From Candidatus Bathyarchaeia archaeon (GTDB lineage: Archaea > Thermoproteota > Bathyarchaeia > Bathyarchaeales > Bathycorpusculaceae): a DNA stretch of 64,000 nucleotides. Numbering within the stretch: the first letter of the stretch is position 1; the number at the start of each line of letters is the position of its first letter. The position numbers and the translations under genes are program-made. The stretch lies in the NCBI GenBank assembly GCA_049516875.1, contig JBEKSS010000007.1:1-64000 (forward strand), written 5' to 3'. The notes beneath the pieces were generated by a model. The model was not told where the DNA came from, did no database searches, and was given only the letters and a program-made list of their open reading frames with translations. Of this stretch, positions 15,588-42,106 are shown piece after piece.

Positions 15588-15608
15588 CGCGTTACTTGGT
15601 TCAGGATT

Positions 15609-18044: not shown

Positions 18045-18151
18045 GGGTTCGAATCTTGGGTCCTTCGATTGTGCCCAAGAATTGTTGCTGGCGATGTCTC
18101 CACTCTCTCGCGTAGGAAATTCGTTGCGTCCAAGCCGAACAGCGCGCGCTA

Positions 18152-19343: not shown

Positions 19344-19627
19344 ATTAAAATCCCCCGCTTGATATGCACTGATTAGTTCACTTGTGTTGATTAGTTTTAT
19401 GGACTATTAATATACATTATGAATACAGCGCGCTAACCGTCTTATCCATACACCAAGCGCGCGATGGGCGAATTCAATATTAGCAGGGCAAAAGCCAAGA
19501 TCAACATCTTGGACCAAGAGGAGCTTTTCAACGCACTTGGATTATGTTTTGTTAGATAGGAGCCTCGCATCTCAAACCAGTCCGGGATCGTTTGAAGTCT
19601 CTTTAGTTCGCTAACTCCATCAAAGCT

Positions 19628-20353: not shown

Positions 20354-20517
20354 CTCGGGAACCTCCGAATTGCAGTTGTCGTCTCATAGCTATAACCACG
20401 ATCCTGGTTTCACATTATAAACTCACTTTTGCCGGGAAAACCGACGACCTTTGCTTCACGAACAACTCGCGCTCAAAGCTTACCTCTTTGCAACTTTCCA
20501 GTAGCGGTCGCTAGCTA

Positions 20518-26986: not shown

Positions 26987-27733
26987 CTATGTCTGTCTTA
27001 GAATCTCTTTTCCCATCAATTCTATCTCTTGAAGAGTAAACTGGATGTTAGATTTTCTTGTCACTATAAAACTCGGCAATTCTCCGATTTTCAATATGGG
27101 AAGAGTAGGATTGTTGATGTTCAAATCTGCATTTTGGTTTGCGAAGACAACAATTCCCTCAACCCACATCCTCCGAGATTTGAAAGTCTTCGAAGACTCT
27201 ATTACTCGTTTAATTCTCATGGAATTCCTCTTTGCTTGTTTGCTGGGGCTACCTAACTCGAAATGAATGAAGCGACTAAAACTTCCGGGTTTTTTATTTG
27301 TATATTGCCTAGTCCATTCGTCGCCATAGCAGGCTATCTTGCCACCATAGTTCTTGGTTTCTATTACAAAGATACCATTTGGTCCCAGAACAACGTGGTC
27401 AATGTTGCCATAGCCATCAGAAACCATAATGTCATTAATCAGGTAATATTCATCACTCAAAGTAGAAGAGAGAATTTTGCTGACCTTGTTCTCTCCTTCA
27501 TAACCTTGCTTGTAGCCAGAGTATTTTCGAAAGAAATAGAAAGCAAAGAAAAAAGGGAAGAACAGAAGCAATGCACGTGGGCCCTCATACCTGCCTACGT
27601 CGATGTATAAAGGTGAATGTGGAATATCCGATAGTATGATAACCGCGAACACAATTATGCAAAGGGCCATTATAGTCAGGTTCTGAATAGCTTTTCTTTT
27701 GAGGTAACTCCCTGACTCTTTCAAGACTTTCAT
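26987..27733 (-). CDS. NERD-domain nuclease-like protein with two TM helices
   Basis: G.EGE..V, IDHVVLGPNGIFVIETKNY, SPSKQ. Confidence 0.9.
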   Translation of the reverse strand: MKVLKESGSYLKRKAIQNLTIMALCIIVFAVIILSDIPHSPLYIDVGRYEGPRALLLFFPFFFAFYFFRKYSGYKQGYEGENKVSKILSSTLSDEYYLINDIMVSDGYGNIDHVVLGPNGIFVIETKNYGGKIACYGDEWTRQYTNKKPGSFSRFIHFELGSPSKQAKRNSMRIKRVIESSKTFKSRRMWVEGIVVFANQNADLNINNPTLPILKIGELPSFIVTRKSNIQFTLQEIELMGKEILRQT

Positions 27734-28226
27734 CGTGAAGACAACCTGGCAGATGCACATGGAGAAATTGATGTTCCATGTCCAAGTATTTTATATGTGC
27801 GGTATTGTTAGCCCAGCAGGTCACAATCTCCTTGTCTCTGAGAAGATGATGATTTCTAAATTTCTAATTTTCTAATCTAGGGAAGAACTAGAATTTCAGG
27901 TTTTTTCTCGAATAGAATTTAGAAAATCCCTTGAAATCAAAAACAAGAAAGAGCTGTCTTCAAACAATGAAGCGTCTCTTTGCAACCTCCCCTTAAGCTT
28001 CAACGACAGCAATCGCACAGTAGCACAAACACACAATCAACAAACAACAAAACATCAAACACACAAACACGAAACTTCGATGAAAACATTCTAAAGGGTT
28101 CATGGAAAGTGATGGTGTGTTTTCGGTTTTGGTTTGGGTCAGAGCTAGCGCGCGCACAGTGGCGCACACTAGCCCACGCATACGAACATGAGAATAAAAA
28201 AAGGTGGGAAATTCCCGACGGTTGAT

Positions 28227-28436
28227 TTAAGGTTCTCTTTTGACTACAAAGGCGATTTTGACAACGGCACGGTATTCCACGATCTTGTTCTTTTCTACTT
28301 TTGCCGTGCACCGCTTTACATAAACAGACTTTATGTTCCTAACCGTCTTGGCAGCTTCTGTAATTGCATTCTTTGTGGCGTCTTCCCAGCTTTTTGGTGA
28401 GCTACCTATCAACTCGACTACTTTTGCAACTGTCAT
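28227..28436 (-). CDS. Dodecin
   Basis: KVVELIGSSPKSWEDA...YRAVVKIAF. Confidence 0.92.
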   Translation of the reverse strand: MTVAKVVELIGSSPKSWEDATKNAITEAAKTVRNIKSVYVKRCTAKVEKNKIVEYRAVVKIAFVVKREP

Positions 28437-28587
28437 TTTGTCCAGGCTCCCTAATCTATAACTAGCAATGTTCCTTATTATTTTGTTCCCAGGCAAAAGC
28501 GCGCGCGCAAATCGTCACTGTCGATTGATTAAAATAGTTTTCAGAGAATCAAAACCAAGGTGAGAGGGGGGTGAAAAATCGACAATC

Positions 28588-28779
28588 ATGACAGTAGAAC
28601 TTGACTTAGATCGAATGGAGAAAATGAAGCAACAAGTCTTGAAAACCATTCAAAGAATCGTGGATGAATATGGAAACGTGTCTATCATGGAATTGGAGTT
28701 GGCGTTGATAGAAGGACTTGCAAAAGTGAGAGAAATCGGCATGAAACAAACGCAAGAAGAAGATGAGAGTGTCGTCTAG
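28588..28779 (+). CDS. Small hypothetical protein
   Basis: ORF with upstream GGGGGTGA SD-like sequence. Confidence 0.55.
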   Translation: MTVELDLDRMEKMKQQVLKTIQRIVDEYGNVSIMELELALIEGLAKVREIGMKQTQEEDESVV

Positions 28780-28920
28780 AAAAAGAGCCGCAATGTTCTA
28801 TGGGTATTTCAAAACGTGGAAAACCCCATATAGCATAGCATAAGGGAGAATCAGTCAGCACGAGCAACTATAAACTTAAAAGGAAATGCAGGCGAACCTA
28901 GTTAGCGAAGGTAGAACAGA

Positions 28921-29265
28921 ATGGATTTCGTTGCGTTACTGATTCAGATTGTCGTAGGGGTCATCATTATCGCGCCAATTCTCTGGCTGGCTGGGAGAGC
29001 ACTATCTGGGAAAGACAAAGCAAAGTTCACGGATGCAATATGGATAGTGGTTCTTGGAACAGTAATAGGTGCGGTAGTCGGCGCTTTTGTTGGCGGCTTG
29101 ATAGCGGCACTCATCATGTTCATAGTCTGGCTTGCACTGATTAAACACTTCTTCGACTGCGGATGGTTAAAGGCACTGGCGATAGCTATTATTGCAGTGA
29201 TAATCTTCATAATCATAGTCGCTGTACTGGCAATAATTGGGTTCGGACTGAAACTCTTGCTATAG
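28921..29265 (+). CDS. Small 4-TM membrane protein
   Basis: Hydrophobic; LIKHFFDCGWLKA motif. Confidence 0.75.
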   Translation: MDFVALLIQIVVGVIIIAPILWLAGRALSGKDKAKFTDAIWIVVLGTVIGAVVGAFVGGLIAALIMFIVWLALIKHFFDCGWLKALAIAIIAVIIFIIIVAVLAIIGFGLKLLL

Positions 29266-29571
29266 CCTCTGACATCGTAATCTTGGGCCCACCCTTTTTT
29301 TTAACCTGCTGAACAATAGAAAACTACGTTAGGAACGTCGAATGCTCTGCAACTCGATCGATCGAGTGGTGTTGTTAGAGCATGCAGCTTGAATTGGGCT
29401 GTTCTGCCACGTTGGAAACTCGTAAAAGAATGCTGGTTAAAACGCTACGCTAAGATCTTAATGTTTGCTTTTTCGCAGATCTCTTCGAGCTTTTGCGGTG
29501 AGAAGTCTGTGTAATGCCTTGCTAGTACCGATTTTGGCACTCTTCCACAAAAAGCATCGACATACGTAAAC

Positions 29572-30057
29572 CTACAAAGCGAGAATGTCATCCGGTAAAT
29601 TGTCAATTCCTCCGAATTCTTTGACAGCAATCGACTTGATTCTTTTCTTCAGCTCTGGCTTGATGTGCGTGTATGTCATTTCGCTTTCTCCACCAATACT
29701 CTCACAGTTGTCTTCAACTATAATGTCTGGCATAGCTCTCTCTGCAACATCTTTGTATTCTTCACCTTCCACTCGAAAGAGTAGTTGATCCTTTGGAAAA
29801 TTGTGCTTCTTGAGAACACTTCTTATCCGTCCAATCTCAGCAGGCTTCGTTCGAGACGTCAAATACACTATTTTTGCACCTTGACTTTTCCATAAGTGCA
29901 ACTTCTTCGCTCCATTCCCCACCGGAATGTAAGTTCCATACTCGCGAATTGAGGGTTCTTTGCCCTCGAGAACTTGCTTCACGATGTCCTCTCTTGAAAG
30001 ACCTTTGGCCCCACTGTGCATAATCAGTGTTCCTTCAGTGAACACAAGAATCTTCAT
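29572..30057 (-). CDS. HAD-like hypothetical protein
   Basis: LVFTEGTL, YLTSR, IIVEDN (degenerate HAD motifs). Confidence 0.65.
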   Translation of the reverse strand: MKILVFTEGTLIMHSGAKGLSREDIVKQVLEGKEPSIREYGTYIPVGNGAKKLHLWKSQGAKIVYLTSRTKPAEIGRIRSVLKKHNFPKDQLLFRVEGEEYKDVAERAMPDIIVEDNCESIGGESEMTYTHIKPELKKRIKSIAVKEFGGIDNLPDDILAL

Positions 30058-30169
30058 AGGTCTATCAACTATATCTGGTCGAATTAAAAAGTAATGTGCA
30101 CCGAGTGCACAACGACTGTCTACCTCTTTCTAACCTCTCTGTTGCAGCAATAATGCTTGCTTGTTTGCT

Positions 30170-30697
30170 CTAGCGAGTTTCATTCATTTTCAACAGATAT
30201 TCTGCAAGTGCTGAGAAGGTCAGATAGCGCCAGTGACTCTTATCATTCAAGTCGATTATGAAGCTCTTGATATCATCAACTTTCAAATGTGGAAATGTTT
30301 TGATGTATTCTTTAAACCGTACATATTCAGAATAGTCCTTGTGAAGAGCAATAGCCACGTTGTCAGCACCGCAGCCCATTCCATTCATGGCAATAATCGT
30401 TGGGGACGGATTCTTCTCTTCCAATTCGCGAGAATGCCTCAGTATATCCTCGAAAATCTCTTTTGATGCTGGTTCACTCAGTTTAGCAAAGGTTATCGAC
30501 ACTATTTGAAAACCGAGTCTTACATAATCGGGTATCATCGTGTATTCCCTGATCAAGCCTTGCTTCTCAAGCCTCTGAATAAGCCTACTAACCGTAGGCT
30601 GGGAAACCCCAATTACCTTGGCTAATTCTCTATCGCTCCTGCGGCTATTCTTAAGGAGTTCAGAAATGAGTTTCAGTTCAACATCCTTCAAAAGCAT
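30170..30697 (-). CDS. Lrp/AsnC-family regulator (paralog of 26126..26632)
   Basis: ELLKNSRRSDRELAKVIGVSQPTVSR. Confidence 0.9.
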   Translation of the reverse strand: MLLKDVELKLISELLKNSRRSDRELAKVIGVSQPTVSRLIQRLEKQGLIREYTMIPDYVRLGFQIVSITFAKLSEPASKEIFEDILRHSRELEEKNPSPTIIAMNGMGCGADNVAIALHKDYSEYVRFKEYIKTFPHLKVDDIKSFIIDLNDKSHWRYLTFSALAEYLLKMNETR

Positions 30698-30752
30698 TCC
30701 CTATAGCTTCTTAGGGACGTTTCAATATTTAAAGGCGGCCCAAAGCACGCTA

Positions 30753-30960
30753 GGCCAACCTCTTTTCAACCTCCTAGTTCTCTCAAGCCTCTCTGTTACA
30801 ATATCACTATTCAACCTCAGCACTCATTCACACTATCACCAACTCGGGTAACGCATTTAGTTTTTAAATTCCAATTTTCTAAGCCAGGAGAAGAAGCAGG
30901 GTTTCCAAGATTTTTATTTGATTAGAATTTTGAAATTAGACAATTGCCTTGATTTCGAAC
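30753..30960. repeat. Non-coding repeat copy B (first part at 30096-30140)
   Basis: GCCAACCTCTTT..CTCTCTGTTAC.ATATCACTATTCAACC shared with 26848-26910. Confidence 0.75.
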
Positions 30961-31098
30961 AAGTTGTAGATACAGTGTTTACAGATCTAGAGCTTATATG
31001 CAGCGAGGTATGAAAGAACAATATCCCCTCAAGTGATTTGAAAAAAGAATATGGAAACTAGGAGAAAACCAATCCCAGATTAGAGCTGTTGGCTTGAT

Positions 31099-31248
31099 CT
31101 AAAATCGACTTCTACTTGGGGGTGCTCTCTTCGAGTAACACTCTCGGCAGTATACAGGTCTGCTGCCATCGGGCTTGAATGGTACTTCACATTCCTTTTT
31201 ACATTCAGCGCAAACTGCCTTGTGCATCTCTTTTCTCTCATACGTCAA
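31099..31248 (-). CDS. CxxC-x17-CxxC domain protein
   Basis: EMHKAVCAECKKECEVPFKPDGSRPVYCRECY; below ORF-track cutoff. Confidence 0.9.
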   Translation of the reverse strand: MTYERKEMHKAVCAECKKECEVPFKPDGSRPVYCRECYSKRAPPSRSRF

Positions 31249-31434
31249 CTCTCTCAACTCCTTCATGGTTGCTGTGCAAAAATCACTTCTTACACGCTTC
31301 GTTCACCGTTCACATCGCCGCTTATAAACAACATGTCTAGAATCATAAAGTCGAGACCTATAGAAATCAAATTCGCACGCGTTCTACTTTGCCACGATGA
31401 GGAATGTGCGAACGAAGGCGATAGGATGAAGTTC

Positions 31435-31992
31435 TTATTCGTAGAATATGAGGTTTTGTTCCTCCAAGCTTTCGTGAAGCTTATGCACTGCGTCATAAAC
31501 GTCCTGTTCTTTCTTCGCTCCGGTGCAAACAAGGTTCCCGCTTGCGAATATCAGTATGACCACTTTGGGCTCGTCCATCCTGTAGATCAATCCTGGAAAC
31601 TGCTCCGGCTCATACATGGTTTTTCCAAGCGTGCTCGCTTCTTCTAACTCTATCCTTCCGCCTAAGCTTGCGGAGGCAACAATGTTCTGAATCTTTAACT
31701 CCGGTTTGCTGATGATGATTATTCCGCCCTTTTTCAACTCTTTAACAACTGCCATAACAGCCCTGCGGGATTCCTGTTCCGATTTCGCTCCTGTGCACAC
31801 CATTTTACCAGAGTTGAAAATCAGCGTCGCCGTCTTCGGTCTTTTGAGCCTAAACACAAGTCCTGGGAACTGTTCCGGACGATACTCTACGCCTGGATAA
31901 CTCTTCACCACAGCGTTTAAGTCAATTTTCTGGTTTAGAGTGGCAGAAGCAACAACGTTTTGAATTTTTATTATTGCTTTAGTCTTCGGCAT
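31435..31992 (-). CDS. tbp: TATA-box-binding protein
   Basis: Two repeats NVVAS...YxPEQFPGL...LIF.SG..VCTGAK. Confidence 0.98.
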   Translation of the reverse strand: MPKTKAIIKIQNVVASATLNQKIDLNAVVKSYPGVEYRPEQFPGLVFRLKRPKTATLIFNSGKMVCTGAKSEQESRRAVMAVVKELKKGGIIIISKPELKIQNIVASASLGGRIELEEASTLGKTMYEPEQFPGLIYRMDEPKVVILIFASGNLVCTGAKKEQDVYDAVHKLHESLEEQNLIFYE

Positions 31993-32101
31993 TTGATACC
32001 GCTTCTTGTAGTGTAGCGGATGCTTAAATACCCTTTATATGCGCGCGCTAGAGCGAGAACTTAAGTAACTTGGCTAAGATCTATCAGAGACGTGACTGAC
32101 T

Positions 32102-32902
32102 ATGTCTTCGTCCTCTGACCGTGTTGTGAAAGACTATTATGATGAGAAAGCTCAGACTTATGACGACTATTCGAAGCAGCTGTATTTCAAAGTGTACGAC
32201 GCAGCAACATGGAAAATCACTGAGCCTTATGTTCCACGAGACTCAAAGGCATGTGTGCTCGATGCTGCTGGCGGGACCGGAAAATGGAGTGTTCCCATGG
32301 CAAAGTGCGGTGCACGCGTCGTGCTAGCAGACCTTTCCGACGGAATGCTGGACGTGGCAAAAGAGAAGATTGCTAAGGAAGGTCTGCAAGACCGCATAGA
32401 AACCAGGAGGTGCGACCTTCGCAAGCTGGACTTCGGAGACGAATCCTTCGACATGGTGTTCTGTGATCATGCCCTATGCTTCATCAAAGAACAAGATACA
32501 GTGGTGAGCGAGCTCGTCAGAGTTCTGAAGAAGGGGCATCGTCTGATTATCTCTGGACAGAACCGTTATGTGCTGTCCCTTTCTATTGTTCAGGAAGACC
32601 CGTCCCTAGCCTCCAGAATATTGGCGAAAGATTCACCGTTCGACATGCTTGACCGCGTGAAGGTCTATGCACTGTCACCAGACGAGTTTAGACAGCTGCT
32701 TGAAGACAACGGCGTCAGGGTGGAGAGAATGTTCGGCAAAGTCTTCACTATGCCCCTCGGTCTGTCTCTTGAGAGACTGCAAGGAGAGACGTTCAGCAAG
32801 GCCTTTGTCGACAAACTCTTGAAAATCGAGTACAGCATGCTTGAGAGGTCAGACGCTGTGCCTTTAGCATCACACATTCAGGCAGTCGGATGCAAACGAT
32901 AG
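32102..32902 (+). CDS. Class I SAM-dependent methyltransferase
   Basis: VLDAAGGTG, DLSDGML, FDMV. Confidence 0.9.
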   Translation: MSSSSDRVVKDYYDEKAQTYDDYSKQLYFKVYDAATWKITEPYVPRDSKACVLDAAGGTGKWSVPMAKCGARVVLADLSDGMLDVAKEKIAKEGLQDRIETRRCDLRKLDFGDESFDMVFCDHALCFIKEQDTVVSELVRVLKKGHRLIISGQNRYVLSLSIVQEDPSLASRILAKDSPFDMLDRVKVYALSPDEFRQLLEDNGVRVERMFGKVFTMPLGLSLERLQGETFSKAFVDKLLKIEYSMLERSDAVPLASHIQAVGCKR

Positions 32903-33008
32903 GGCCCAGAATAGTTCGCCCTCATGTTTAACCCGGACCGTTCACCTTAGCGCGCGCCAGAGATTCATGAAAACTTGGAAACGATTTATCGCTTTTCATC
33001 TTGTTGGT

Positions 33009-33905
33009 TTAAATCACCACGCCCATCCGGTGAAGCTCGTCCAACAGGCTTGTCTTCGTCTGTTTGAGTCTCTGCCTCTGTTCCACGTATTCGTCGCCAC
33101 TTATCTTGCCAGCTCGGAAGTCTTGGTCGAGTTTTTCCAATTGTGCATCTATGTCGGTCAGTCTCGATTTGAGCTGGTCAACGTATGAGACAGCCGCAGT
33201 CGGTTCTAACGTTTGAGCAGGCGTCAAAGCCGCTTTTATGGTGCCGTCTTCGATGCGTAGTATCCTGTCTCCTTGCCTAGCAACGTTTGGGTCATGAGTA
33301 ACCATCACGATGGTCTTGCCTAGTTCTCGGCTTATTTTCACCAAGTAGTCGACCACGATTTTGACGTTTGTAGTGTCTAATTCTCCTGTTGGCTCGTCGG
33401 CTAGGATTACTGGGGCGTCGTTGGCCAGAGCCGCAGCCATGGTTATGCGCTGCTGTTCTCCGCCGCTTAATTCGTCGGGTTTATGATCCGCTCTCTGGGT
33501 TAGGCCTACTATTTCAAGCAGTTCTTTGACGCGCTCTTTTCGTTTGCTTCTTCCCGCGCCCATGGCTATCATCGGCAGCTCGACGTTTTCAGCAGCGGTC
33601 AGCGTGGGAATCAGGTTGAGGGTTTGGAAAATGTGTCCCACGGTTTTCCTTCGATAATCAACGAGCTGAGAGGTTGACAGTGCCGTGACTTGTGTGTCAC
33701 CCACTGCAACAGAGCCTGCGGTTGCCGTGTCCAGTCCTCCTATTATGTTTAGCAGCGTAGTCTTTCCGCTTCCGCTTGGTCCTATGATTGAGACCACTTC
33801 GCCCTCTTTTACCGACATGCTCAGTCCGCGTAGGGCCTGAACTTCCACTTTGCCCAGATGATACACTTTAATCACGTCTTTGACGATTATTCCTGCACCT
33901 TTCAA
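33009..33905 (-). CDS. ABC transporter ATP-binding protein (LolD/MacB-like)
   Basis: [25 protein letters not shown]. Confidence 0.95.
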
Positions 33906-36742
33906 ACTTCTCGCACCGTCCTCTCCAACCTTGAACTGTATCTTTTTGCCATCAGAACGACCGGGATGATGGTTGACGCGAAAACTAGGATGAAAGAAAT
34001 GAACAGGGTCAAGACTGCATCAGGCGGAAAGACCATGTGCCTGCTCAAGGGAGTGACTGAATAGAAGGCGGCGTTCACAGCGTTGTTTGACGCAACTACT
34101 CCGCGCACCACTATGAGTCCCACAACCGTGCCTACGAGCACTGCGAATGTCACGACCGCCAGGTTCTCAGTGAGAAGCATGACGAGCAACTGCTTGAATG
34201 AGAGCCCCCGAACGCTCATGATTGACACCTCACGTTTCCTCTCTCTCAAACTGACCAACGTAACCAGGGCGGTTCCGATTGAAGCCGCCGCCACCATGAA
34301 AAGCACGCCTAGGCGCAGAACGTTGAACGAGCCCGTTATGGTAAGGTCGCTCTGTTGATTCGCGAGTTGCTCAGTCACAGAGGACACCGAGCTGACAGCG
34401 CTGATATCTAATCCGCGAATCTGATCCGCGACAGCCTTACTGTCCGTGCCGCCCTGCAACCTCATGAGTATTTTGGCCGAGGCCGAACCAACTAAATTTT
34501 CTATTGTCTGGTTGTAGAGTCCTTCTGGAACATAAGACCAGTACTGACCTGAAGTTTGTCCAGATTCGATTCCGAAAAACCCTACAACCCTCAACTCTTC
34601 CGTCTGCACTGCCCCCGTAGATGAGTCACCAAAAGTCACGGCGACGACATCGCCCACCTTCTTGTTAAGAGCGTTGGCCTGGTTAACATCCAAAATAACA
34701 GTGTAATTATTTGAACTCATGGTCTCAAAGGCTTTTTCAACTGGGCTGCCGCTGAACATATCGTCCTCATAATAGGCTGTGGAAAGCCACGTTTTCGGGT
34801 TTACCGCCCGGAACTGCATTCCCTGTTCGTTTCCTCCAAGACCGGCCGAACCCGTGAAACTGTATTCCGCAGTTATAGATTGAATGTGCGACACGTTGCT
34901 GCTGACGGCACTCATTATCTGCGACGCATTTAAGGGCGAACTTAATGTGAAACTGACGTCCGAGCCAACGGCAAAGCGAGCTTCACGAACAACGAAGTCT
35001 TGTTCACTCGCCAGAGTTCCAACTACCTGAAAACTGTACCCAATGATGAAGGCTATCAGAAATGCGACAGCCGCGGCGCGAGCAGGGTTTCTCTGAACAC
35101 TCTTCGTGGCAAGCTTGCCTAAATCACCCAAAAACCTAGAAGCCCTTGTCATGATTTCTTGGAACTTAAACGATCCGCTTATGAAGATTTTTGTGAAACC
35201 CCAGAAGAACAGAAAGGGCCCAACGTAAGTCAGTGCGAAATCGACGAGGACAAATATCTGTAACAGAAGGAAGACGAAAACGTTCGCAGGCGCTCTTACG
35301 ACCGCCTGAACATTAATGCCTAGAAGAAACACGATAATCTTATAAGAACCGAGAAGAAGGGCAGTCCAAGGCCACAGTCGTCTGTACGGTTTAGCCTCTT
35401 CCACCTGCACGTATTCTCTCAAAGCGTCGACTGCGGCCATCTTTGAAGCTCTTCTTGCTGACCGATAAACCGAAAGAAAGGTGATGATGGCGGCGAAAAC
35501 CATGGTCAAAATGATTGTGTCAGGGCCCAGTACAAGCGCGCCGATGAATTGGCCGCCTGTGGCCGCAGCAAACCATGGAGTAACAGTGAAACTCAACACT
35601 ATGCCCAGCAAACCTCCAAGTAGCCCTATTAGTGCGGCCTCGAACAGAAACATCCACCAGAGTTGTCGCCTGGAAAACCCTTTGGTCAGTAGGAGACCGA
35701 TCTCACGGCGCCTTAGGTTGAAAGACACGTCAGAAACTGTTGAGCCCACGTACCAAGCCACAAAAAACACGGGCAACGATGCTATGATGAAGGTAGCACG
35801 CATCGCAAACGAGGTACTCTGAAAACTGTCCAGCGGATAGGCCAGATTGTCTTGAGCAGACAAACCAAAAGGTGAGACCTCTTCGTTAATCTGCGCCGTA
35901 ACCGCTGCAAGCTTGCTGGCTGAACCAGGGATGTCCCATGGACTGATAAGGCTCGAGCGGTCAACAAAAACGAGAATTGTGGTGCTGAACGGATTAGAAT
36001 ATTCAGGCGAAGAATCGTGCACGAAGTCGAGCAGCTTGGCAAAAGTTTTCTCCCAACTAGTGATCAAAAGATTCTGTGGATAAAACTGGTACTGGTTAAG
36101 AGATGCTATAGAAAGCTCCTGTTCACTGAGATGAACAAAACCAACCACTTTGAGATTGACAACAAATGATGATGTTTGTGACATGGCAGAATTTTCTTCC
36201 CAAACACCCTGCTGGAATACGTTGGCATTCGCGGTGACATTTATCGGAATGATGTCCCCGACGCGAATCTTTCCAGCGTCAGGCGAGTCTGCCCAAACAT
36301 AAGTTTCATTTTCCCCTAACGCGGATGTGTTACAGACAAGAGAATGCTCAGATATCCCAATCAAATTGGTGGAAGTCTTGAAATTAAACTCTTGAACAAA
36401 ATTATAATATGCATAAGTAGAAATTGCTTCAACTTGGGTTACGCCTTGCACACTTGAAATCGCGCTAACTGCATCTGAAACATTTTTGGAGGACAACGCG
36501 ATATTCGCTGTCGGGGGAAAGGTGTAGTAACTGTAACCCACGGAAATGTCAACTGGAATTTTGTTCAGAGTCTGATTGAGGGCCTGCCACGCAGCTGTAT
36601 CCGCGCCCACGTTGATGCCCGCGAAAAATGTTGAGGCCAAAACGATGCCTAGCAACAAGGCTATGAACAGCCGCCATGAACGAACAAGCCTCTTAAAAGT
36701 GTACGAAAATGACAATTTCAACCAAATAACAGTTTGACTCAA
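33902..36742 (-). CDS. FtsX-like ABC permease
   Basis: Two FtsX units (RRREIGLL..G; ERKREVSIM..RG). Confidence 0.9.
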   Translation of the reverse strand: MSQTVIWLKLSFSYTFKRLVRSWRLFIALLLGIVLASTFFAGINVGADTAAWQALNQTLNKIPVDISVGYSYYTFPPTANIALSSKNVSDAVSAISSVQGVTQVEAISTYAYYNFVQEFNFKTSTNLIGISEHSLVCNTSALGENETYVWADSPDAGKIRVGDIIPINVTANANVFQQGVWEENSAMSQTSSFVVNLKVVGFVHLSEQELSIASLNQYQFYPQNLLITSWEKTFAKLLDFVHDSSPEYSNPFSTTILVFVDRSSLISPWDIPGSASKLAAVTAQINEEVSPFGLSAQDNLAYPLDSFQSTSFAMRATFIIASLPVFFVAWYVGSTVSDVSFNLRRREIGLLLTKGFSRRQLWWMFLFEAALIGLLGGLLGIVLSFTVTPWFAAATGGQFIGALVLGPDTIILTMVFAAIITFLSVYRSARRASKMAAVDALREYVQVEEAKPYRRLWPWTALLLGSYKIIVFLLGINVQAVVRAPANVFVFLLLQIFVLVDFALTYVGPFLFFWGFTKIFISGSFKFQEIMTRASRFLGDLGKLATKSVQRNPARAAAVAFLIAFIIGYSFQVVGTLASEQDFVVREARFAVGSDVSFTLSSPLNASQIMSAVSSNVSHIQSITAEYSFTGSAGLGGNEQGMQFRAVNPKTWLSTAYYEDDMFSGSPVEKAFETMSSNNYTVILDVNQANALNKKVGDVVAVTFGDSSTGAVQTEELRVVGFFGIESGQTSGQYWSYVPEGLYNQTIENLVGSASAKILMRLQGGTDSKAVADQIRGLDISAVSSVSSVTEQLANQQSDLTITGSFNVLRLGVLFMVAAASIGTALVTLVSLRERKREVSIMSVRGLSFKQLLVMLLTENLAVVTFAVLVGTVVGLIVVRGVVASNNAVNAAFYSVTPLSRHMVFPPDAVLTLFISFILVFASTIIPVVLMAKRYSSRLERTVREV

Positions 36743-36810
36743 ATAGCCAATTTCAATGTTTCGGTTCGAATGCTCAATGCATTTTCATTTGGAACATCAC
36801 AAACGCGCGC

Positions 36811-37900
36811 TGCCTTGTCTCTTTATTATGTGTTGAAGTAGGTTGGTGAGACTGCCTTGTCTGGTCTTCTGAGGTTTTCTGCCGCTTCTCTGTTTAGAAC
36901 TAGGCACAACAAGCTGTAAAGCGCGTAGGAGGCAACGTTTCTTACGCCTCTGACCTTGTTTATGGCCAAGCTGTACTGCGTCTTGAGGAAGCTGTAGACC
37001 GCTTCAATGTGAGGCCTCTTATGATACTCCTTCTTCTGGTCATCTGGCCCGTAGGTTCGAAACTTCTTGTCCACCCTAAGGATGTCTCTTACGCCACGTT
37101 TCTGGTTAACGGGATAAGGAATCACTGCGGCGTCAACGGCCCTTCTGAGTTTGCCGTCGCTGTATTGGCTGTCAGCTATCACGCTTCTCAATCTGGCTGC
37201 AGACCGTTTGAGAATCAGCTTCGTCTTCTCCAGCATGTTCAGCGAGTGTTTCTTCTCGTTCTGGTTGGCAGAAGCAAAAGCGCAGGTCAACGGAAGCATA
37301 GTCTGAGAATCGATGCACAAGTGAAGCTTGTAGCCCAATCCGAATGTTCTGCCTGCTCTTCCAACCCTGGCTTCCTCGTCGGAATAGCCTTTCTTGTTAT
37401 CCAGTGGATGGCGCGTGCTCCAAGCCTTTATGAACGAAGCGTCAAGAACGGCATCAACGTCTTTTGCGTCGTTCCGTTTCAAGAGTTTAACAACTTTCTG
37501 TTCTATTATTCTGGTGAGGTTGTCTTCCCCGACTTTTCGGATGAACCTGCTGAGAACGCTTCTAGGATAGCCCGTCTCGCCTGTTTTGATTAGGCACAGT
37601 TTTCTGAGCCGTATGTCTGTGTCGAGTAGTCTTGTCATTTCTCTCAGGCTGCGAACACCCTTCATTCGCATGACGATGAAGGATCTGAAAACGCCCAATG
37701 GGTTTCTGGGAGGCCTCCCAGGTCCAACCGTGTGGAAGCATCTGAGCAACGCTGCTTTAGCAAAGCTTAAGTCTACGTTTCTGAAGAGGGTTTCTAGGGT
37801 CTCGTGTTCATCTTGTCCCGCTAGGATTCACCTCCTAAGCCTGGACGTAACTCACTAAATACGAGACCCCAACTGCATTAATTAATTTAGGGACAAGCCA
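36811..37900 (-). mobile_element. Insertion sequence (IS5/IS4-like DDE) in GCGCGC target
   Basis: TIRs TGCCTTGTCTCTTTATTA / TAATTTAGGGACAAGCCA; GCGCGC directly outside both ends. Confidence 0.85.
36826..37749 (-). CDS. DDE transposase
   Basis: LDASFIKA, GYKLHL, ADSQY, Y.KR..IE; frame stays open to ~37827. Confidence 0.9.
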   Translation of the reverse strand: MLRCFHTVGPGRPPRNPLGVFRSFIVMRMKGVRSLREMTRLLDTDIRLRKLCLIKTGETGYPRSVLSRFIRKVGEDNLTRIIEQKVVKLLKRNDAKDVDAVLDASFIKAWSTRHPLDNKKGYSDEEARVGRAGRTFGLGYKLHLCIDSQTMLPLTCAFASANQNEKKHSLNMLEKTKLILKRSAARLRSVIADSQYSDGKLRRAVDAAVIPYPVNQKRGVRDILRVDKKFRTYGPDDQKKEYHKRPHIEAVYSFLKTQYSLAINKVRGVRNVASYALYSLLCLVLNREAAENLRRPDKAVSPTYFNT

Positions 37901-37906
37901 GCGCGC

Positions 37907-37996
37907 TACGATTTGCCCCCCAAAACAAGCCCAAATCAAGCCGAAATAGGCAAAAGAAGAATTAAAACCATTTTTAACCATTTTAGCGACAAACCA
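37907..37996. mobile_element. Partial MITE / second IS end
   Basis: Ends TTTTAGCGACAAACCA (similar to IS TIR); shares CAAAAGAAGAAT.AAAACCATTTTTA with 12931 MITE. Confidence 0.6.
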
Positions 37997-38012
37997 GTGC
38001 CCGACAATGCTC

Positions 38013-39080
38013 TCAAGAGGATGTCGGAGAGGGCATTAAGTTTTTGATTGCTGTGAATTGAACCACTATGCCGCCTATCAGCAGTCTAGCCCAGAAAGTC
38101 AAGACTCGAATGAGAACTGTTGCTACAGCAAAGACAACCAGAAACTGTGGGCTACCAAGCAGGGCATACAAGGTTGTCATGATTATCTCTGCCAATCCCA
38201 CTTCGCCCGGGATTACGCCTATCGGCAGGTACTGGATGGCCCCGCTGATGGAGTAGACGATTATGATGGCGCTGATGGAGATTGCGGTTCCAGCAGACCC
38301 TAGAGAAAGGAAAACTAGGAGGGCTATTGACATGTCTAAGAGCCACGAGAAGGCCGTCAACACCATCGGCAGCACGAGGCTTTTTCGATGTGCGCCCAGT
38401 GTGAGAATTCCTTCATGAAAAATGTCCAGCGCCTTCGTAACCCTCTCTCGTGCCTGTTCAAGTTTCCAGCGGCCTCGCGAAACCCGCGTAATCAGGTTGA
38501 ACAGCCAATTGGCGAGCCTGCGCGTTGAACGTTTCCTCGAAGCTAAGTAAAACAGGAGGCCGATTACGACAGCGTCGCCAAGCAGGATCACAATTGCAAA
38601 TGCTAGGACAAAGAGAGGAGGTCTGCTCGTGAGCGCAAAATAAACGATGCTCACAAGCAAACCTGCAGCTGTCACGCAGGTTGTAGCAATACGTTGCCCC
38701 ACAGCAGACGCGACAACCTTACCGTAGTCTCCCCCAGCGTCTTTCGACATCAAATAAATCCTTGACACCTCGCCGCTGACGGGCTCGCCCGGAATTACCA
38801 AGTCAACAAAATTCTCAACCCAGACAAACTGGAAAGCCTTCAGAAAAGAAGTCTTAACAGACAGAAGACCCAGCAGTCGTTGCCAAACGACAGAGTACAA
38901 TGCTACACTCGCAAGAAGCGCGAAGAACGCCAACAGAAAATAGAGTGGATTGAGTCTTTTTACAGTTTCAATCAAATCACCGAGAGGAACGAAAAGATAA
39001 AGATACACGAGGAAAACTGCTAGCCCAACGACAATCAGCAGATAACGCCTTTTCAGTTTGGGGCCTTTTTCACTCGCCAT
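38013..39080 (-). CDS. Lysylphosphatidylglycerol-synthase-TM / flippase-like membrane protein
   Basis: Multi-TM; P...SGE..R.Y, PGEVGLAE, LIR.LTFW. Confidence 0.85.
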   Translation of the reverse strand: MASEKGPKLKRRYLLIVVGLAVFLVYLYLFVPLGDLIETVKRLNPLYFLLAFFALLASVALYSVVWQRLLGLLSVKTSFLKAFQFVWVENFVDLVIPGEPVSGEVSRIYLMSKDAGGDYGKVVASAVGQRIATTCVTAAGLLVSIVYFALTSRPPLFVLAFAIVILLGDAVVIGLLFYLASRKRSTRRLANWLFNLITRVSRGRWKLEQARERVTKALDIFHEGILTLGAHRKSLVLPMVLTAFSWLLDMSIALLVFLSLGSAGTAISISAIIIVYSISGAIQYLPIGVIPGEVGLAEIIMTTLYALLGSPQFLVVFAVATVLIRVLTFWARLLIGGIVVQFTAIKNLMPSPTSS

Positions 39081-39318
39081 TGGACAACGCACCGGATGCA
39101 CAAAACCAGATGACAACTCTTGTTCTTATGCTTTAGCAATACTGCGGTAGGCGGTCGTTTTGAGGTTTAGATCCAGCGTCGGCTCGCCGTACAAAAGATG
39201 GCAACTCAATTCCATCAATCATTAGCGTCGCAGAAAGTCGTGGATTGAATGACGAATGGCAAAACCTTGATAGCGTATCCTACGAAGGGTGGAGTGACTG
39301 ACCGCTCTGTCGTTCAGG

Positions 39319-40296
39319 CTATCTGACGTAAGACTCGTTCAGCCAAACTCGCGCCCCATCAGTATCCATGGTTGCCTTGATTCCCATGGGCAACGGCAAG
39401 TTAGGCGTGTAATGACCGAAATCCATGCTCGCGATAATCGGAAAATCGTATTCTCCCGTTATGTCCAGAACGAGTTCCTTAGTCTCGTTCGTCATGTCTT
39501 TTATTCTGCGGCCCGACTTGCTTGATGAATCAGGCACTTCACCTCTCATCTTGCCGATCAACATGCCTCTTGTCCTATCAAACAACCCTGATTCTCTGAA
39601 GTGCACCAGCTTCGCGTCAAGTTCATCCAAAGGTTGCGCTATCGATTCCCAGAAGAAAATTATGTCCTCGTCCAAGTTTGGATAGTAGGGGGTCCCAAGC
39701 AGGGGCTCCGCGCTGTTTATGCTTCCGCCGAACAGTCTGCCCCTAGCCTTGCCTTCTCGCCACACTTCCCAATTGGTAAATGCCGGTAACAGCCCCACTG
39801 CCTCAGCGTTCTCGGTGATTCTGAAGAAAAGGCTTGTTTCGTACTTTGCTTCTTTGCTTTTCACGTCAGCCCCAAACCCGAAAACCACGTCTGTCTGATG
39901 AAGCCCCGTCAGGCCGGTTTTGGCCAGAAACGCCACGTGGAAGGTTGTGATGTTGCTCATGCCCGAGAAGATTTTGGGATTGTCCCTTATCAAATCGTAA
40001 TCCAGATGCCGCAACGTGCGAATCGCCACAGACCCGCCCAAGGCACAGACAATCGCGTCCACCTCTTCATCAGCAAACATATTGTTAATGTCTTCGGCTC
40101 GCTCAAGGTCTGTACCAGCCATGTATCCCATGTGCTGAAGCCTGACAGTCTTGCCTTCCTTTACCTTGAAGCCGAACCTTTTCAGGTTGTCAATGCCCTG
40201 ATTGTACTCCTGCTGAACCGGCAAAACCGGGTGTGAAGGGGCGATCACGCCAATGGTTCCGCCTTCCAAGAGCTTTGGGGGTTTCAACAGCCTCAT
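39319..40296 (-). CDS. S66 LD-carboxypeptidase / MccF-like protein
   Basis: IGVIAPS, AGTD.ERA.D, GMSNIT, DFGH. Confidence 0.9.
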   Translation of the reverse strand: MRLLKPPKLLEGGTIGVIAPSHPVLPVQQEYNQGIDNLKRFGFKVKEGKTVRLQHMGYMAGTDLERAEDINNMFADEEVDAIVCALGGSVAIRTLRHLDYDLIRDNPKIFSGMSNITTFHVAFLAKTGLTGLHQTDVVFGFGADVKSKEAKYETSLFFRITENAEAVGLLPAFTNWEVWREGKARGRLFGGSINSAEPLLGTPYYPNLDEDIIFFWESIAQPLDELDAKLVHFRESGLFDRTRGMLIGKMRGEVPDSSSKSGRRIKDMTNETKELVLDITGEYDFPIIASMDFGHYTPNLPLPMGIKATMDTDGARVWLNESYVR

Positions 40297-40448
40297 GCTT
40301 CTCAGCTCAATTCAATTCCAGATGACGAATTTCGTACAGATTGGACATATAAGTCTACCCTTGAACACAGGTACCCCTGGCATGTGCTACCAAAACAGAT
40401 AAGAACCTGAGTATGAACCAACAATGCGCAAGACGAGAGTGAATTGAG

Positions 40449-40643
40449 GTGCCATCAGAAATCTCTGATCCCGAAAGATTCGTCGAAATCAGTGCAAACG
40501 CTGAGTACTGCGCCGTCAAAAGATTGCAGGGCGTTGTGAAATTGAAGCTTAGGACACCAAAGAAGCTCTACACTCTGAAAGTTGAGCCTTTGAAGGCTGA
40601 GGAAGTCATCAAGAAGCTTCAATGCGAAATCCGAGAAATATAG
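40449..40643 (+). CDS. rpl38e: Ribosomal protein eL38
   Basis: MP.EI.D...F, VKLKLRT.K.LYTL. Confidence 0.85.
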   Translation: MPSEISDPERFVEISANAEYCAVKRLQGVVKLKLRTPKKLYTLKVEPLKAEEVIKKLQCEIREI

Positions 40644-40706
40644 GTGCAATTTGCAGAAGCTCGCATATTTTCTTCACTTGAATTCTTTCTTAGCGCGGGC
40701 AAAGAA

Positions 40707-41111
40707 TCAAGAGAGCGGAGGCGTGTTCTTATCCAAGAACTCTTGTTGCAGGCCGCCCTCAGATTTGAGGGAGGATCCACAGAAAGGACAGAAACCGAAT
40801 TCACCTTCTGGCAGTGCTTTCCCACATTGTGGACATGGCACCGCACTCTTGAATGCAATCTTCGCCAACTGCCCCACGAGTCTAGAGTATAAACGTGCGT
40901 AATAGAGATACACAGCGAATCCCACCGCGGCAATCACTAACCCGACAACCCCCAGATTGATAGAGTTTCCCGCAAGCGAACGGGTTGAAAAACCAGCAAC
41001 CGCCACAACGACAGCAACAAGGCAGGTTAGAAGACCGCCTCTCTCATTTCGCTTCGCATCCCTCATCATTTCCTGAAGAAGTGCAATCCTCGCCGCCTCA
41101 GACAAATTCAA
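40707..41111 (-). CDS. 2-TM protein with C-terminal zinc ribbon
   Basis: CPQCGK...FCPFCG. Confidence 0.7.
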   Translation of the reverse strand: MNLSEAARIALLQEMMRDAKRNERGGLLTCLVAVVVAVAGFSTRSLAGNSINLGVVGLVIAAVGFAVYLYYARLYSRLVGQLAKIAFKSAVPCPQCGKALPEGEFGFCPFCGSSLKSEGGLQQEFLDKNTPPLS

Positions 41112-41323
41112 CGCCTTTACCCTGGAATAGCGCAATGACCCTGTTTTGCGCAATATGAGAATTGCTGCGCGGACAGTAAATACGTTATGAATCCTCAATA
41201 AGAATCCATCCTCAAGTCGGCAGCTATTACACAAAGCATATACCTGTTTTTGGCAGGCGTCGGAGAAAACGTAATAGGAAGATGTTTTGTCTATCTGCAT
41301 AGGAAAAACGGTGGGAATATAAA

Positions 41324-42106
41324 CTGAAGATTTCAGTCGCTGGCAAGGGAGGTGTTGGAAAGACTCTGCTGGCTGCCGGTCTGGCTTTCTCCTTTGTCAG
41401 AAGAGGATTGAGTAGTATAGCGATTGATGCTGATCCTTCGCCGAACCTTGCTTTGACACTGGGGTTGTCTTCAGAGGAAGCGCGCAAAATCGTGCCTCTT
41501 TCAGAAAACAAGAGCTTGATTGAGTCCAAGACGAGCACGGAGTATTCAGGCATTTTCCGCCTGTCCTTCAGCGTGGACGATGTTGTACGCGACTTCTCAG
41601 TGAAGACCCCTTTCGGCGTGAACTTGATCGTGATGGGAACCGTGCAGTCGATGGGTTCAGGATGCACCTGCCCAGCAAACGCGCTCATCCGAGCACTGAT
41701 GCGTCACTTGATAGTGGAAAGGGACGAAGCTGTCATCCTAGACATGGAGGCAGGCTGCGAGCACATGGGCCGAGGAACAGCGCGACAAGTAGATTATATG
41801 CTCATAGTGACAGATGCAAACAGCAAATCCTTAGAAGTCGCCAATCACATTCACGCATTAGCCGCAGGAGCTGGAATGAAACAGGTCTTCCTAGTCGAAA
41901 ACAAGGTGGCGAATGAAAATCAAAAAGCCGTCATCGAAAAGTTCGCTCAAGAAAACGGTTTAAAGGTTCTAGACTCCATCCCATTCGACGAGACGGTTGT
42001 GGAGGCGGAAATGCGAGGCGAAACCCCGCTCAAGAACGAGTCTTCGAAAGCATTGGTCGCCATAGAAAAACTCTGCGAGAAACTCATGGCAAAGAACAAC
42101 CCATAA
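41324..42106 (+). CDS. cooC: CooC nickel-insertion ATPase (CTG start)
   Basis: (M)KISVAGKGGVGKT in frame upstream of track ORF; IDADP, GCTCP, DMEAG.EH..RG. Confidence 0.92.
   Translation: MKISVAGKGGVGKTLLAAGLAFSFVRRGLSSIAIDADPSPNLALTLGLSSEEARKIVPLSENKSLIESKTSTEYSGIFRLSFSVDDVVRDFSVKTPFGVNLIVMGTVQSMGSGCTCPANALIRALMRHLIVERDEAVILDMEAGCEHMGRGTARQVDYMLIVTDANSKSLEVANHIHALAAGAGMKQVFLVENKVANENQKAVIEKFAQENGLKVLDSIPFDETVVEAEMRGETPLKNESSKALVAIEKLCEKLMAKNNP

What the first reader, a model, noticed from the sequence alone, without database searches (positions are those of the whole stretch)
36804..37906. DDE insertion sequence sitting in a duplicated GCGCGC: candidate driver of the tracts
Seen: a 1090-bp element with ~18-bp imperfect TIRs has GCGCGC immediately outside both ends. 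Established: DDE transposases duplicate their targets, and IS5-type elements often prefer YTAR. Inference: this IS targets GC repeats, and cycles of insertion, excision and adjacent deletion would lengthen tracts and leave them at rearrangement junctions. The exact TIR/TSD boundary is ambiguous because some GC could belong to the element end.
Basis: partly seen in the sequence, partly recalled or inferred. Interest (0 to 1): 0.75.

Follow-up and report, generated by a model that had tools for sequence, protein, structure and literature searches.

The report
GC-capped archaeal insertion sequence family
This is one, probably crippled, copy of an IS5-like jumping gene from an uncultured archaeon whose every copy ends in GCGCGC with no ordinary target duplication, and whose relatives occur only in the genomes that also carry hundreds of short GC tracts between genes.

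Summary
Window 36805-37906 is a 1,102-bp insertion sequence (1,090 bp without the two GCGCGC hexamers) with imperfect inverted ends and a DDE_Tnp_1+DUF772 transposase gene on the minus strand.

The proposed refutation test (other copies flanked by unrelated sequence) did not refute it. All 7 full copies in 5 related genomes, 56 distinct metagenome insertions and about 36 MITE relatives carry GCGCGC at both ends.

This does not show a duplicated GC-repeat target, because GCGCGC is a palindrome and could equally be the tip of the inverted repeat. Nothing outside the hexamers is duplicated.
- Caps are almost always exactly 6 bp, although free tracts are mostly (GC)4-5.
- In five comparisons, related genomes without the element have no GC tract at that point.

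I therefore favour hexamers that travel with the element, about 0.45 against 0.27 for a true 6-bp target duplication.

The link to the tracts is real.
- A(GC)4T occurs 29-115 times in the six element-rich genomes and 0-11 times in 35 others.
- Only 14-21% of the longer tracts lie in long ORFs; the rest are intergenic.
- They sit at indel, inversion and synteny breakpoints.

Which is cause and which is effect, and the cutting chemistry, remain open. No clean filled/empty pair was found.

The parts
36805..36810 (.). Left GCGCGC cap, on the side downstream of the transposase gene (IRR side)
   Evidence: The same hexamer is at this end in 7 of 7 full genome copies. The (GC) run on this side is exactly 6 nt in 43 of 56 metagenome insertions.
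36811..36842 (.). IRR core of the terminal inverted repeat (TGCCTTGTCTCTTTATTA...)
   Evidence: the repeat finder I1. Conserved in the relatives' copies.
36826..37749 (-). Transposase ORF as it is open in this copy (307 aa from a TTG). D, D and E motifs are present (VLDAS, IADSQY, YHKRPHIEAVYSFLK).
   Evidence: 94% identical to 335-aa metagenome proteins.
37750..37835 (-). Remains of the normal N-terminus: GGAGG-GTG start (about 37829-37835, minus strand) followed by a 2-nt gap near 37823/37824 that puts the start out of frame with the ORF
   Evidence: Translation shows a stop before ILAGQDEHE. The DNA alignment shows GTGAATCC--TAGCGGG against GTGAATCCTTTAGCTGG in L069 and L072; L075 also has the two extra bases (GTGAATCCATTAGCTGG); L070 shares the gap.
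37869..37900 (.). IRL core of the terminal inverted repeat (reverse complement TGGCTTGTCCCTAAATTAATT...)
37901..37906 (.). Right GCGCGC cap (IRL side), followed by TA
   Evidence: The (GC) run on this side is exactly 6 nt in 45 of 56 metagenome insertions, and TA lies outside it in 25 of 56.
37923..38005 (-). Truncated, decayed end of a family-1 MITE lying 17 bp from the IS; its own cap has decayed to GTGCCC
   Evidence: blastn of window 37923-37997 against MITE G000:C2:99002-99304 gives 89% over 75 nt. The rest of that MITE is not on the other side of the IS, so this is not a simple nested insertion.

Best explanation
Window 36805-37906 is one copy of a roughly 1.1-kb insertion sequence of the IS5/IS1182 superfamily: a single DDE_Tnp_1+DUF772 transposase, 335 aa in intact copies. 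In this copy a 2-nt gap separates the ORF from its start codon. The family is common in uncultured Bathyarchaeia-like archaea. It shares its end design with two MITE families in the same genomes: GCGCGC, then a variable 5-nt linker, then TGTYCC-N-AAAWT.

I read the GCGCGC hexamers as the conserved outer tips of the inverted repeats. They move with the element, possibly overlapping a very short GC-type duplication. I do not read them as two copies of a pre-existing GC-repeat target.

On this reading the hundreds of free intergenic (GC)3-5 tracts, typically A(GC)nT, are by-products of the family's activity. They would be what remains of capped ends after excision, slippage between the two caps, one-ended events, deletions and inversions.

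Shown: the identity of the element; the universality and fixed length of the caps; the absence of any outside duplication; the co-occurrence of elements and tracts; and tracts at breakpoints. Inferred: that the caps are element-borne, that the tracts are scars, and the chemistry that leaves them.
For: (1) Identity: Pfam hits; 1,767 related proteins, the best 94% identical.
(2) Caps: 13 of 14 ends of 7 full genome copies are exactly GCGCGC and the 14th is GCGTGC. Among 56 distinct metagenome insertions the (GC) run is exactly 6 nt at 45 left ends and 43 right ends. 18 family-2 and 3 family-1 MITEs in G000 and 18 MITEs in relatives also carry the caps.
(3) No outside duplication: the same dinucleotide lies on both sides in 7 of 56. 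TA lies on both sides in 5 of 56, against 5.4 expected if the sides are independent. The six youngest insertions (98.6-99.9% identical to a sibling) show TA/TA once. One of two 100%-identical MITEs in G004 has AA/TA.
(4) Cap length is fixed. In G000, 58 of 59 tracts that abut an end core are (GC)3, while 332 (GC)4 and 53 (GC)5 tracts exist, of which one touches a core. Longer caps (5 and 4 of 56) are near the 6% expected from a chance GC neighbour.
(5) The hexamer is conserved across end families while the next 5 nt vary (TGGCT, TGCCT, ATGCG, ATGCC, ATGTG, TAGCG).
(6) Related genomes lacking the element have no GC tract at the homologous point. G021 against G000:C9:103895. G003 and G004 against G000:C15:17603. 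G021 and G024 against the G000/G004 site. G003 and G004 against the G002 MITE. G002 and G003 against the G004 6-kb segment, which is bounded by a capped MITE end and GCGCGTGC, with both flanks conserved.
(7) Tracts as products. At G002:C5:67229 a 10-bp GC-tract indel makes an A(GC)5T tract at a site that reads AAGCTT in G004 and carries no tract in G000. A MITE in G004 lies where G000 has TA(GC)4TA. An inverted 330-bp segment in G000 is flanked by two TA(GC)4TA where G021 has one decayed tract.
(8) Co-occurrence. A(GC)4T counts are 98, 29, 87, 69, 115 and 63 in G000-G004 and G021, and 0-11 in 35 others. End-core counts are 56, 7, 44, 6, 84 and 50 against 0-6.
Against: IS5- and IS1182-family elements captured experimentally all made 2-9 bp direct repeats (PMC3281130, Table 2, read as passages). 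With nothing duplicated outside the caps, the usual rule argues that at least part of the hexamer is target-derived.

Two observations fit a GC-tract target. G003 has GCGCGC exactly where G004 has an 857-bp insert flanked by (GC)4 and (GC)5. In locus L099 an IS end abuts a MITE end with only GCGC between the two cores, not two full caps.

At a truncated GmrSD-like gene the cap reads Ala-Arg where homologues have Ala-Ser, which could mean partial overlap with gene sequence.

In four of the five 'no tract in the relative' cases only one flank is conserved. In the fifth, 10 bp are missing. None is a clean empty site.

The element-tract co-occurrence rests on two neighbouring genera (g1 and g18), so it is one or two independent events at most. 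G003 has 69 tracts but only 6 end cores.

No known IS5-type chemistry leaves 8-bp scars.
Confidence: 0.45

Rival explanations
1. The true element is the 1,090-bp core. Its transposase recognises a GCGCGC (A-GCGCGC-T) target and makes a 6-bp staggered cut, so each insertion sits in a duplicated GCGCGC. Excision, re-insertion and slippage then lengthen the tracts.
For: Every independent copy has the hexamer on both sides and nothing else is duplicated. IS5-family enzymes normally duplicate 2-9 bp, including 6 bp for one IS5-group element (PMC3281130, Table 2 passages). The outside context is roughly palindromic: A before the left cap in 42 of 56 and T after the right cap in 25 of 56 (read). G003 has GCGCGC where G004 has an insert flanked by GC tracts. 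L099 shows two elements sharing one short tract. A(GC)3T is about four times commoner than other G+C hexamer palindromes in the same context (82 against 12-21).
Against: 59% of the genome's GCGCGC hexamers lie in longer runs (1,412 in all, 577 of them in exact (GC)3 tracts). Yet only 9 of 56 insertions, and 1 of 59 capped ends in G000, show a longer tract. About 17 copies have a variant hexamer at one end (for example ACGCGC or GCGCAC), and none has the same variant as a direct repeat at the other end (read). Related genomes lacking the element have no GC tract at the junction in five comparisons. If the hexamer were flank, the tips of closely related end families would differ (T/A, G/T/A), which is unusual for one transposase lineage (inference).
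Confidence: 0.27
2. The (GC)n tracts are an independent feature of this archaeal clade, for example a protein-binding or Z-DNA-prone intergenic palindrome, or the product of another enzyme. The IS/MITE family has merely adapted to them, by homing on them or mimicking them, and does not create them.
For: Tracts are far more numerous than elements (1,123 tracts of 6 nt or more against about 56 end cores in G000). G003 keeps 69 A(GC)4T with only 6 end cores. Some tracts are conserved in position across three species, after the gene ending at window 11625. Their intergenic location (14-21% in long ORFs against 80% of the genome) would suit a regulatory role.
Against: Flanks of free tracts share no extended motif beyond T/TA. 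Tracts mark indel, inversion and synteny breakpoints rather than fixed positions relative to genes. One tract appears as a 10-bp indel between genomes that are 94% identical. A MITE and a free tract occupy the same orthologous point. Tract-rich genomes are exactly the element-bearing ones among the 41 searched.
Confidence: 0.18
3. TA is the true 2-bp target duplication, as in IS427-group or IS630-type elements; GCGCGC is purely inverted repeat; and unmatched flanks reflect later rearrangement.
For: TA lies outside the cap at 12 of 18 left ends and 13 of 18 right ends of family-2 MITEs in G000 (read), and at 12 and 14 of 18 in relatives. The G004 6-kb segment is bounded by TA on both sides.
Against: The left and right TA are statistically independent. 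Both sides are TA in 9 of 18 (8.7 expected) and 10 of 18 (9.3 expected) for MITEs, and in 5 of 56 (5.4 expected) for the IS. Non-TA flanks are never matched pairs. The youngest IS and MITE copies also lack matched TA.
Confidence: 0.08

Closest known systems
IS5 family insertion sequences (IS5 group, IS427 group)
   Same: Single DDE_Tnp_1 transposase with a DUF772 N-terminal region, element about 1.1 kb, short imperfect terminal inverted repeats, MITE derivatives, and a palindromic sequence at the insertion boundary (IS5's YTAR target is recalled, not tested).
   Different: No direct repeat outside the inverted repeats in 56 insertions. An invariant palindromic GCGCGC cap. The protein scores far below NCBIfam IS5 cut-offs (65.5 against 140). 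No tblastn match in 72,556 plasmids.
IS1182 family
   Same: Best NCBIfam hit (NF033551, 80.6 bits); same Pfam domain pair.
   Different: The score is far below the 270-bit cut-off and only residues 123-214 align. The IS1182-family model is 488 positions long and the one captured member cited is 1,653 bp with a 4-bp repeat. This element is 1.1 kb and its transposase 335 aa.
Insertion sequences that home on short intergenic palindromes (IS1397/ISKpn1 in REP/BIME; recalled from memory, not checked here)
   Same: A mobile element tied to a short, highly repeated intergenic palindrome.
   Different: In that case the palindromes are host elements that exist without the IS and the IS makes its normal duplication. 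Here the palindrome is the element's own boundary and occurs only in element-bearing genomes among those searched.
Excision footprints of eukaryotic cut-and-paste transposons such as Tc1/mariner (recalled)
   Same: Under my favoured reading, short palindromic remnants of both ends are left between AT-rich flanks.
   Different: A different transposase superfamily. Footprints are not established for prokaryotic IS5-like elements. Here they are inferred, not shown.
Highly iterated palindromes such as HIP1 of cyanobacteria (recalled)
   Same: An 8-10 bp G+C-rich palindrome present about 100 times per genome in one clade.
   Different: Here only 14-21% lie in long ORFs, they sit at structural breakpoints, and they match transposon ends.

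Membership tests
IS5 family / IS5-IS1182 superfamily | DDE_Tnp_1 (PF01609) catalytic domain | tested here: met
   52.7 bits against a cut-off of 23, residues 100-285.
IS5 family / IS5-IS1182 superfamily | DUF772 (PF05598) N-terminal domain | tested here: met
   35.7 bits against a cut-off of 23.1.
IS5 family / IS5-IS1182 superfamily | Catalytic D, D, E with the Y-2-R-3-E-6-K signature (signature recalled from the IS4/IS5 literature) | tested here: met
   Read in the translation: VLDAS, IADSQY, YHKRPHIEAVYSFLK. Checked by eye, not by a structure.
IS5 family (NCBIfam equivalogs IS5_1 to IS5_4) and IS1182 (NF033551) | Score at or above the curated whole-protein cut-off | tested here: not met
   IS1182 80.6 against 270; IS5_4 65.5 against 140; IS5_3 36.6 against 110.
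IS5 family | Terminal inverted repeats | tested here: met
   38-nt arms, 74% complementary; conserved in 63 copies.
IS5 family | Direct target duplication of 2-9 bp flanking the inverted repeats | tested here: inconclusive
   None outside the hexamers (7 of 56 same dinucleotide). A duplication hidden inside the palindromic hexamer cannot be excluded or shown.
IS5 family | ISfinder assignment to a named group | not testable with these tools
   ISfinder is not available. tblastn against plasmids found nothing.
TA-duplicating elements (IS630/Tc1-like, IS427 group) | TA duplicated on both sides of every insertion | tested here: not met
   TA on both sides in 5 of 56 IS copies (5.4 expected by chance) and in 9 of 18 and 10 of 18 MITEs, as expected if the sides are independent.
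   One case is compatible (G003 against G004). In five comparisons the relative has no GC tract at the junction, but none is a clean empty site.

The most novel reading that the evidence does not exclude
An IS5-like DDE transposon family in Bathyarchaeia-like archaea whose ends carry a palindromic GCGCGC tip, that integrates without a conventional target duplication, and that leaves a short (GC)3-5 palindromic scar wherever it has excised or rearranged DNA. If so, the roughly 1,100 intergenic GC tracts of this genome are a readable fossil record of transposon visits and of the inversions, deletions and gene-cassette insertions they caused.
Probability: 0.3. Interest if true: 0.75.

Novelty: new variant of a known kind. 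Interest (0 to 1): 0.55.

Why it matters
The element itself is an ordinary kind of thing, an IS5-like insertion sequence with MITE derivatives in an uncultured archaeon. Three features are not ordinary.
- All ends across several end families carry an invariant palindromic GC cap.
- No flanking duplication appears in more than 60 independent insertions.
- Hundreds of free (GC)3-5 palindromes lie between genes and at structural breakpoints, only in the genomes that carry the elements.

If the tracts are scars, they give a direct record of past transposon activity and of how these poorly known archaea reshuffle their genomes. They would also point to an excision or repair chemistry not described for this transposase superfamily. 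If they are targets, this is a new case of an IS with a strict palindromic GC target. Either outcome can be tested with one transposition assay.

Tried and rejected
(1) Reads for an empty site. Contigs of four runs were laid on window 27000-42000. The abundant related strain in X6-X8 joins 36725 to 39308, skipping 2,582 bp that include the IS and the neighbouring gene. There was no joint at the IS ends, so no empty site.
(2) The orthologous locus in G004 loses synteny 30 bp before the IS.
(3) Flanks of 9 IS copies from relatives against G000 gave no adjacent left and right hits.
(4) Flanks of the metagenome IS copies against all fetched DNA matched only the same insertions.
(5) Paralogous empty sites for 963 tracts within G000 gave only coding repeats with substitution-level GCGCGC.
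(6) Flanks of 18 MITEs from relatives against G000, and further searches among relatives, always found one-sided homology or complex replacements.
(7) A 160-kb against 240-kb comparison of G002 and G004 aligned only 66 kb. It gave useful indels but no clean MITE pair.
(8) Open frames spanning the junction after removing the element gave 11 loci, mostly in the 0/6-nt class. Their translations look non-coding, so I draw nothing from the frame counts.
(9) The best candidate for an interrupted gene is a GmrSD-like gene at G000:C3:162763. It is truncated rather than interrupted: the upstream piece has no similarity to the 1,003-aa homologue.
(10) The resemblance of the IS's left flank (GGAACAtcacaaacGCGCGC) to a MITE end is weak, with only 9-mer matches, and I do not rely on it.
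(11) The literature searches (listings only) and the scan's earlier notes on this genome held nothing on this element.

Full report
**What is at the coordinates**

Window 36805-37906 (1,102 bp) begins and ends with GCGCGC. Inside lie imperfect inverted ends: TGCCTTGTCTCTTTATTA... on the left and ...TAATTTAGGGACAAGCCA on the right. The repeat finder gives arms 36805-36842 / 37869-37906, 38 nt and 74% complementary.

The minus strand carries a 307-aa ORF (36826-37749) with DDE_Tnp_1 (52.7 bits) and DUF772 (35.7 bits). The motifs VLDAS, IADSQY and YHKRPHIEAVYSFLK are readable in the translation. That last motif has the Y-2-R-3-E-6-K spacing that I recall for IS4/IS5 transposases.

NCBIfam places the protein nearest IS1182 (80.6 bits, cut-off 270) and IS5_4 (65.5 bits, cut-off 140). 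It is therefore inside the IS5/IS1182 superfamily but below every curated family threshold. tblastn against 72,556 plasmids found nothing.

Homologues are abundant: 1,767 proteins at E up to 0.001, the best 94% identical and mostly 335 aa. One is named by its source as from a Candidatus Bathyarchaeota archaeon.

This copy has a 2-nt gap just behind the GGAGG-GTG start, compared with L069, L072 and L075; L070 shares the gap. The normal start is therefore out of frame, and only a 307-aa product from an internal TTG could be made.

**Copies elsewhere**

The genome (G000, 2.43 Mb, 20 contigs, 97% complete) holds one full copy plus end fragments. Six more full copies, 75-88% identical, lie in G001, G003, G004 (two) and G021 (two), all at unrelated sites. 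Of the 14 ends, 13 carry exactly GCGCGC and one carries GCGTGC.

A metagenome scan returned 80 loci. Of these, 65 have both end cores. I then dropped 4 at contig edges, 2 exact duplicates and 3 that share one flank with another locus. That leaves 56 distinct insertions, one of which (L068) is the window's own contig. The (GC) run outside the core is exactly 6 nt at 45 left ends and 43 right ends.

This outcome is also what an inverted repeat that starts with GCGCGC predicts.

**A wider family**

G000 contains MITE-like elements with the same end design.
- Family 1 (222-303 bp) uses the IS's own ends (GCGCGC-TGSCTTGTCCC).
- Family 2 (about 184 bp, 18 paired copies) uses GCGCGC-ATGCGTGTTCC.
- Hybrids with one end of each kind occur in relatives.
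- A 480-bp version of family 2 encodes a 125-aa winged-helix-like protein.

Across these families the hexamer and TGTYCC are conserved, while the five bases between them vary.

**Is anything duplicated outside the hexamers?**

No.
- Among the 56 IS insertions, TA lies outside the cap on the transposase-start side in 25 and on the other side in 12. It lies on both sides in 5, where 5.4 are expected if the sides are independent. Any identical dinucleotide lies on both sides in 7.
- The six youngest insertions (nearest sibling 98.6-99.9% identical) show TA/TA once.
- Family-2 MITEs have TA at 12 of 18 left ends and 13 of 18 right ends in G000, and at both ends in 9, against 8.7 expected (read). 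In relatives the figures are 12 and 14 of 18, both in 10, against 9.3 expected.
- Two 100%-identical MITE copies in G004 have TA/TA and AA/TA.

TA is thus a site preference, not a duplication.

Experimentally captured IS5- and IS1182-family elements all made 2-9 bp repeats (PMC3281130, Table 2, seen as passages). So either a duplication is hidden inside the hexamer, or this family departs from the rule.

**Target or tip?**

*Against a pre-existing GC-repeat target*

Of the 1,412 GCGCGC hexamers in G000, 577 are in exact (GC)3 tracts and 835 (59%) lie in longer runs. Insertion at random among hexamers with a 6-bp duplication should often leave a longer tract on one side. Only 9 of 56 insertions do. 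In G000, 58 of 59 tracts abutting an end core are (GC)3. The frequency of longer caps (5 and 4 of 56) is close to the 6% expected from a chance GC neighbour.

In five comparisons a related genome that lacks the element continues without any GC tract at the exact end of homology.
- G021 against the MITE at G000:C9:103895.
- G003 and G004 against the MITE at G000:C15:17603.
- G021 and G024 against the site where G004 has a MITE and G000 has TA(GC)4TA.
- G003 and G004 against a G002 MITE.
- G002 and G003 against a 6-kb G004 segment bounded by a capped MITE end on one side and GCGCGTGC on the other. Here both flanks are conserved.

*For a target*

- G003 has GCGCGC where G004 has an 857-bp insert flanked by (GC)4 and (GC)5.
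- In locus L099 an IS core and a MITE core are separated by GCGC only.
- At a truncated GmrSD-like gene the cap reads Ala-Arg where eight homologues read Ala/Ser-Ser.

*Caveat and weighting*

None of the "no tract" cases is a clean empty site. Four have only one conserved flank, and the fifth lacks 10 bp. I weigh these as about 0.45 for caps that travel with the element, 0.27 for a true 6-bp duplication of a GCGCGC target, and the rest for other arrangements.

**The tracts**

G000 has 1,123 alternating G/C tracts of 6 nt or more.
- A(GC)4T occurs 98 times and TA(GC)4TA 23 times. Other G+C hexamer palindromes occur 12-21 times in the A_T context.
- Only 14-21% of the 8-10 nt tracts lie in ORFs of 120 aa or more, against 80% of the genome and 85-91% of control hexamers.
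- Their flanks share nothing beyond T/TA.
- Among 41 related genomes, A(GC)4T counts are 98, 29, 87, 69, 115 and 63 in G000-G004 and G021, and 0-11 in the other 35. The reversed control pattern gives 2-7 and 0-1.
- End cores counted without the hexamer are 56, 7, 44, 6, 84 and 50 in the same six genomes and 0-6 elsewhere.

These six genomes belong to two genera, so this is at most one or two independent associations.

**Tracts at structural breakpoints**

- A 330-bp segment at G000:C12:3397-3715 is inverted relative to G021. It is flanked by two TA(GC)4TA where G021 has a single decayed tract.
- A G000 insert of 1.8 kb ends in TA-GCGCGC-TA at the point where G002 and G003 are uninterrupted.
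- G002 and G004 are 93-97% identical where aligned. Between them, three of four large indels have a tract, a decayed tract or a capped MITE end at a junction. A 10-bp indel in G002 makes an A(GC)5T tract where G004 reads AAGCTT and G000 has no tract.
- In the window, tracts lie in the spacers that bound blocks of conserved genes.
- Nearly every MITE examined sits between conserved and non-conserved DNA.

**Mechanism**

My best reading has three parts.
- The capped ends are what the transposase recognises.
- Insertions prefer AT-rich intergenic DNA.
- Free tracts are remnants of capped ends.

One-ended or intramolecular events would place caps at deletion and inversion junctions.

The steps from element to scar are inferred. 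Why (GC)4 is the commonest size is unexplained.

**Verdict**

This is a new variant of a known kind, with an unusual end structure and an unusual genome-wide correlate. The question that decides its importance (tip, target, or both) needs near-identical filled/empty pairs or a transposition assay.

**Searches for prior description**

Two full-text searches found nothing on this element. The first used GCGCGC + transposase + target site duplication and returned 1 paper, on silkworm MITEs. The second used Bathyarchaeia + insertion sequence + transposase and returned 3 papers. Only the listings were seen. The scan's earlier notes hold nothing on this genome. Notes on other archaeal genomes describe IS5-type MITEs landing next to promoter TATA boxes. 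That could underlie the TA preference here, but I did not test it.

Noticed in passing
window 36726-39307: In three metagenome runs the abundant, closely related strain joins 36725 to 39308. It thus lacks the IS, the MITE remnant and the 367-aa membrane-protein gene at 38013-39116, so this 2.6-kb block is strain-variable.
   Followed up: partly
G000:C10:117472-117951 (locus L194 1173-1652); a 474-bp relative in G004:C19 (L037): A 480-bp element with family-2 capped ends encodes a 125-aa protein with a winged-helix-like N-terminus (HTH_20 25.8 bits, just under the cut-off of 27) and a Cys-rich C-terminus. The 184-bp MITEs look like its deletion derivatives.
   Followed up: partly
window about 30938-32039: Another multi-copy repeat. 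Contig depth rises 4-7 fold here in all four runs. Flanks of IS copies in G001 and G004 match this stretch and several G000 contig ends. It ends beside the (GC)4 tract at 32041.
   Followed up: no
G000:C12:3387-3724: A 330-bp segment inverted relative to G021 and flanked by two TA(GC)4TA palindromes.
   Followed up: yes
G000:C3:162763-162935 (locus L192 1464-1636): A family-2 MITE abuts the last 240 codons of a GmrSD-like (PF03235) gene. The first roughly 630 codons, present in 1,003-aa homologues, are missing.
   Followed up: yes
G004:C6:109269-109456 and G004:C11:27707-27894: Two 100%-identical MITE copies at different sites, which suggests recent mobility in that genome.
   Followed up: partly
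G004:C28:7940-8800 (locus L064 139-1010): An 857-bp insert with one IS-like capped end and a GNAT-acetyltransferase-like ORF (named from reading the sequence only, with no family search), flanked by (GC)4 and (GC)5, where G003 has a single GCGCGC. It looks like cargo moved with one end.
   Followed up: partly
window 10000-20500: This stretch is about 5 kb longer than its syntenic counterpart in G002. The extra DNA lies between conserved gene blocks whose spacers carry the GC tracts.
   Followed up: partly
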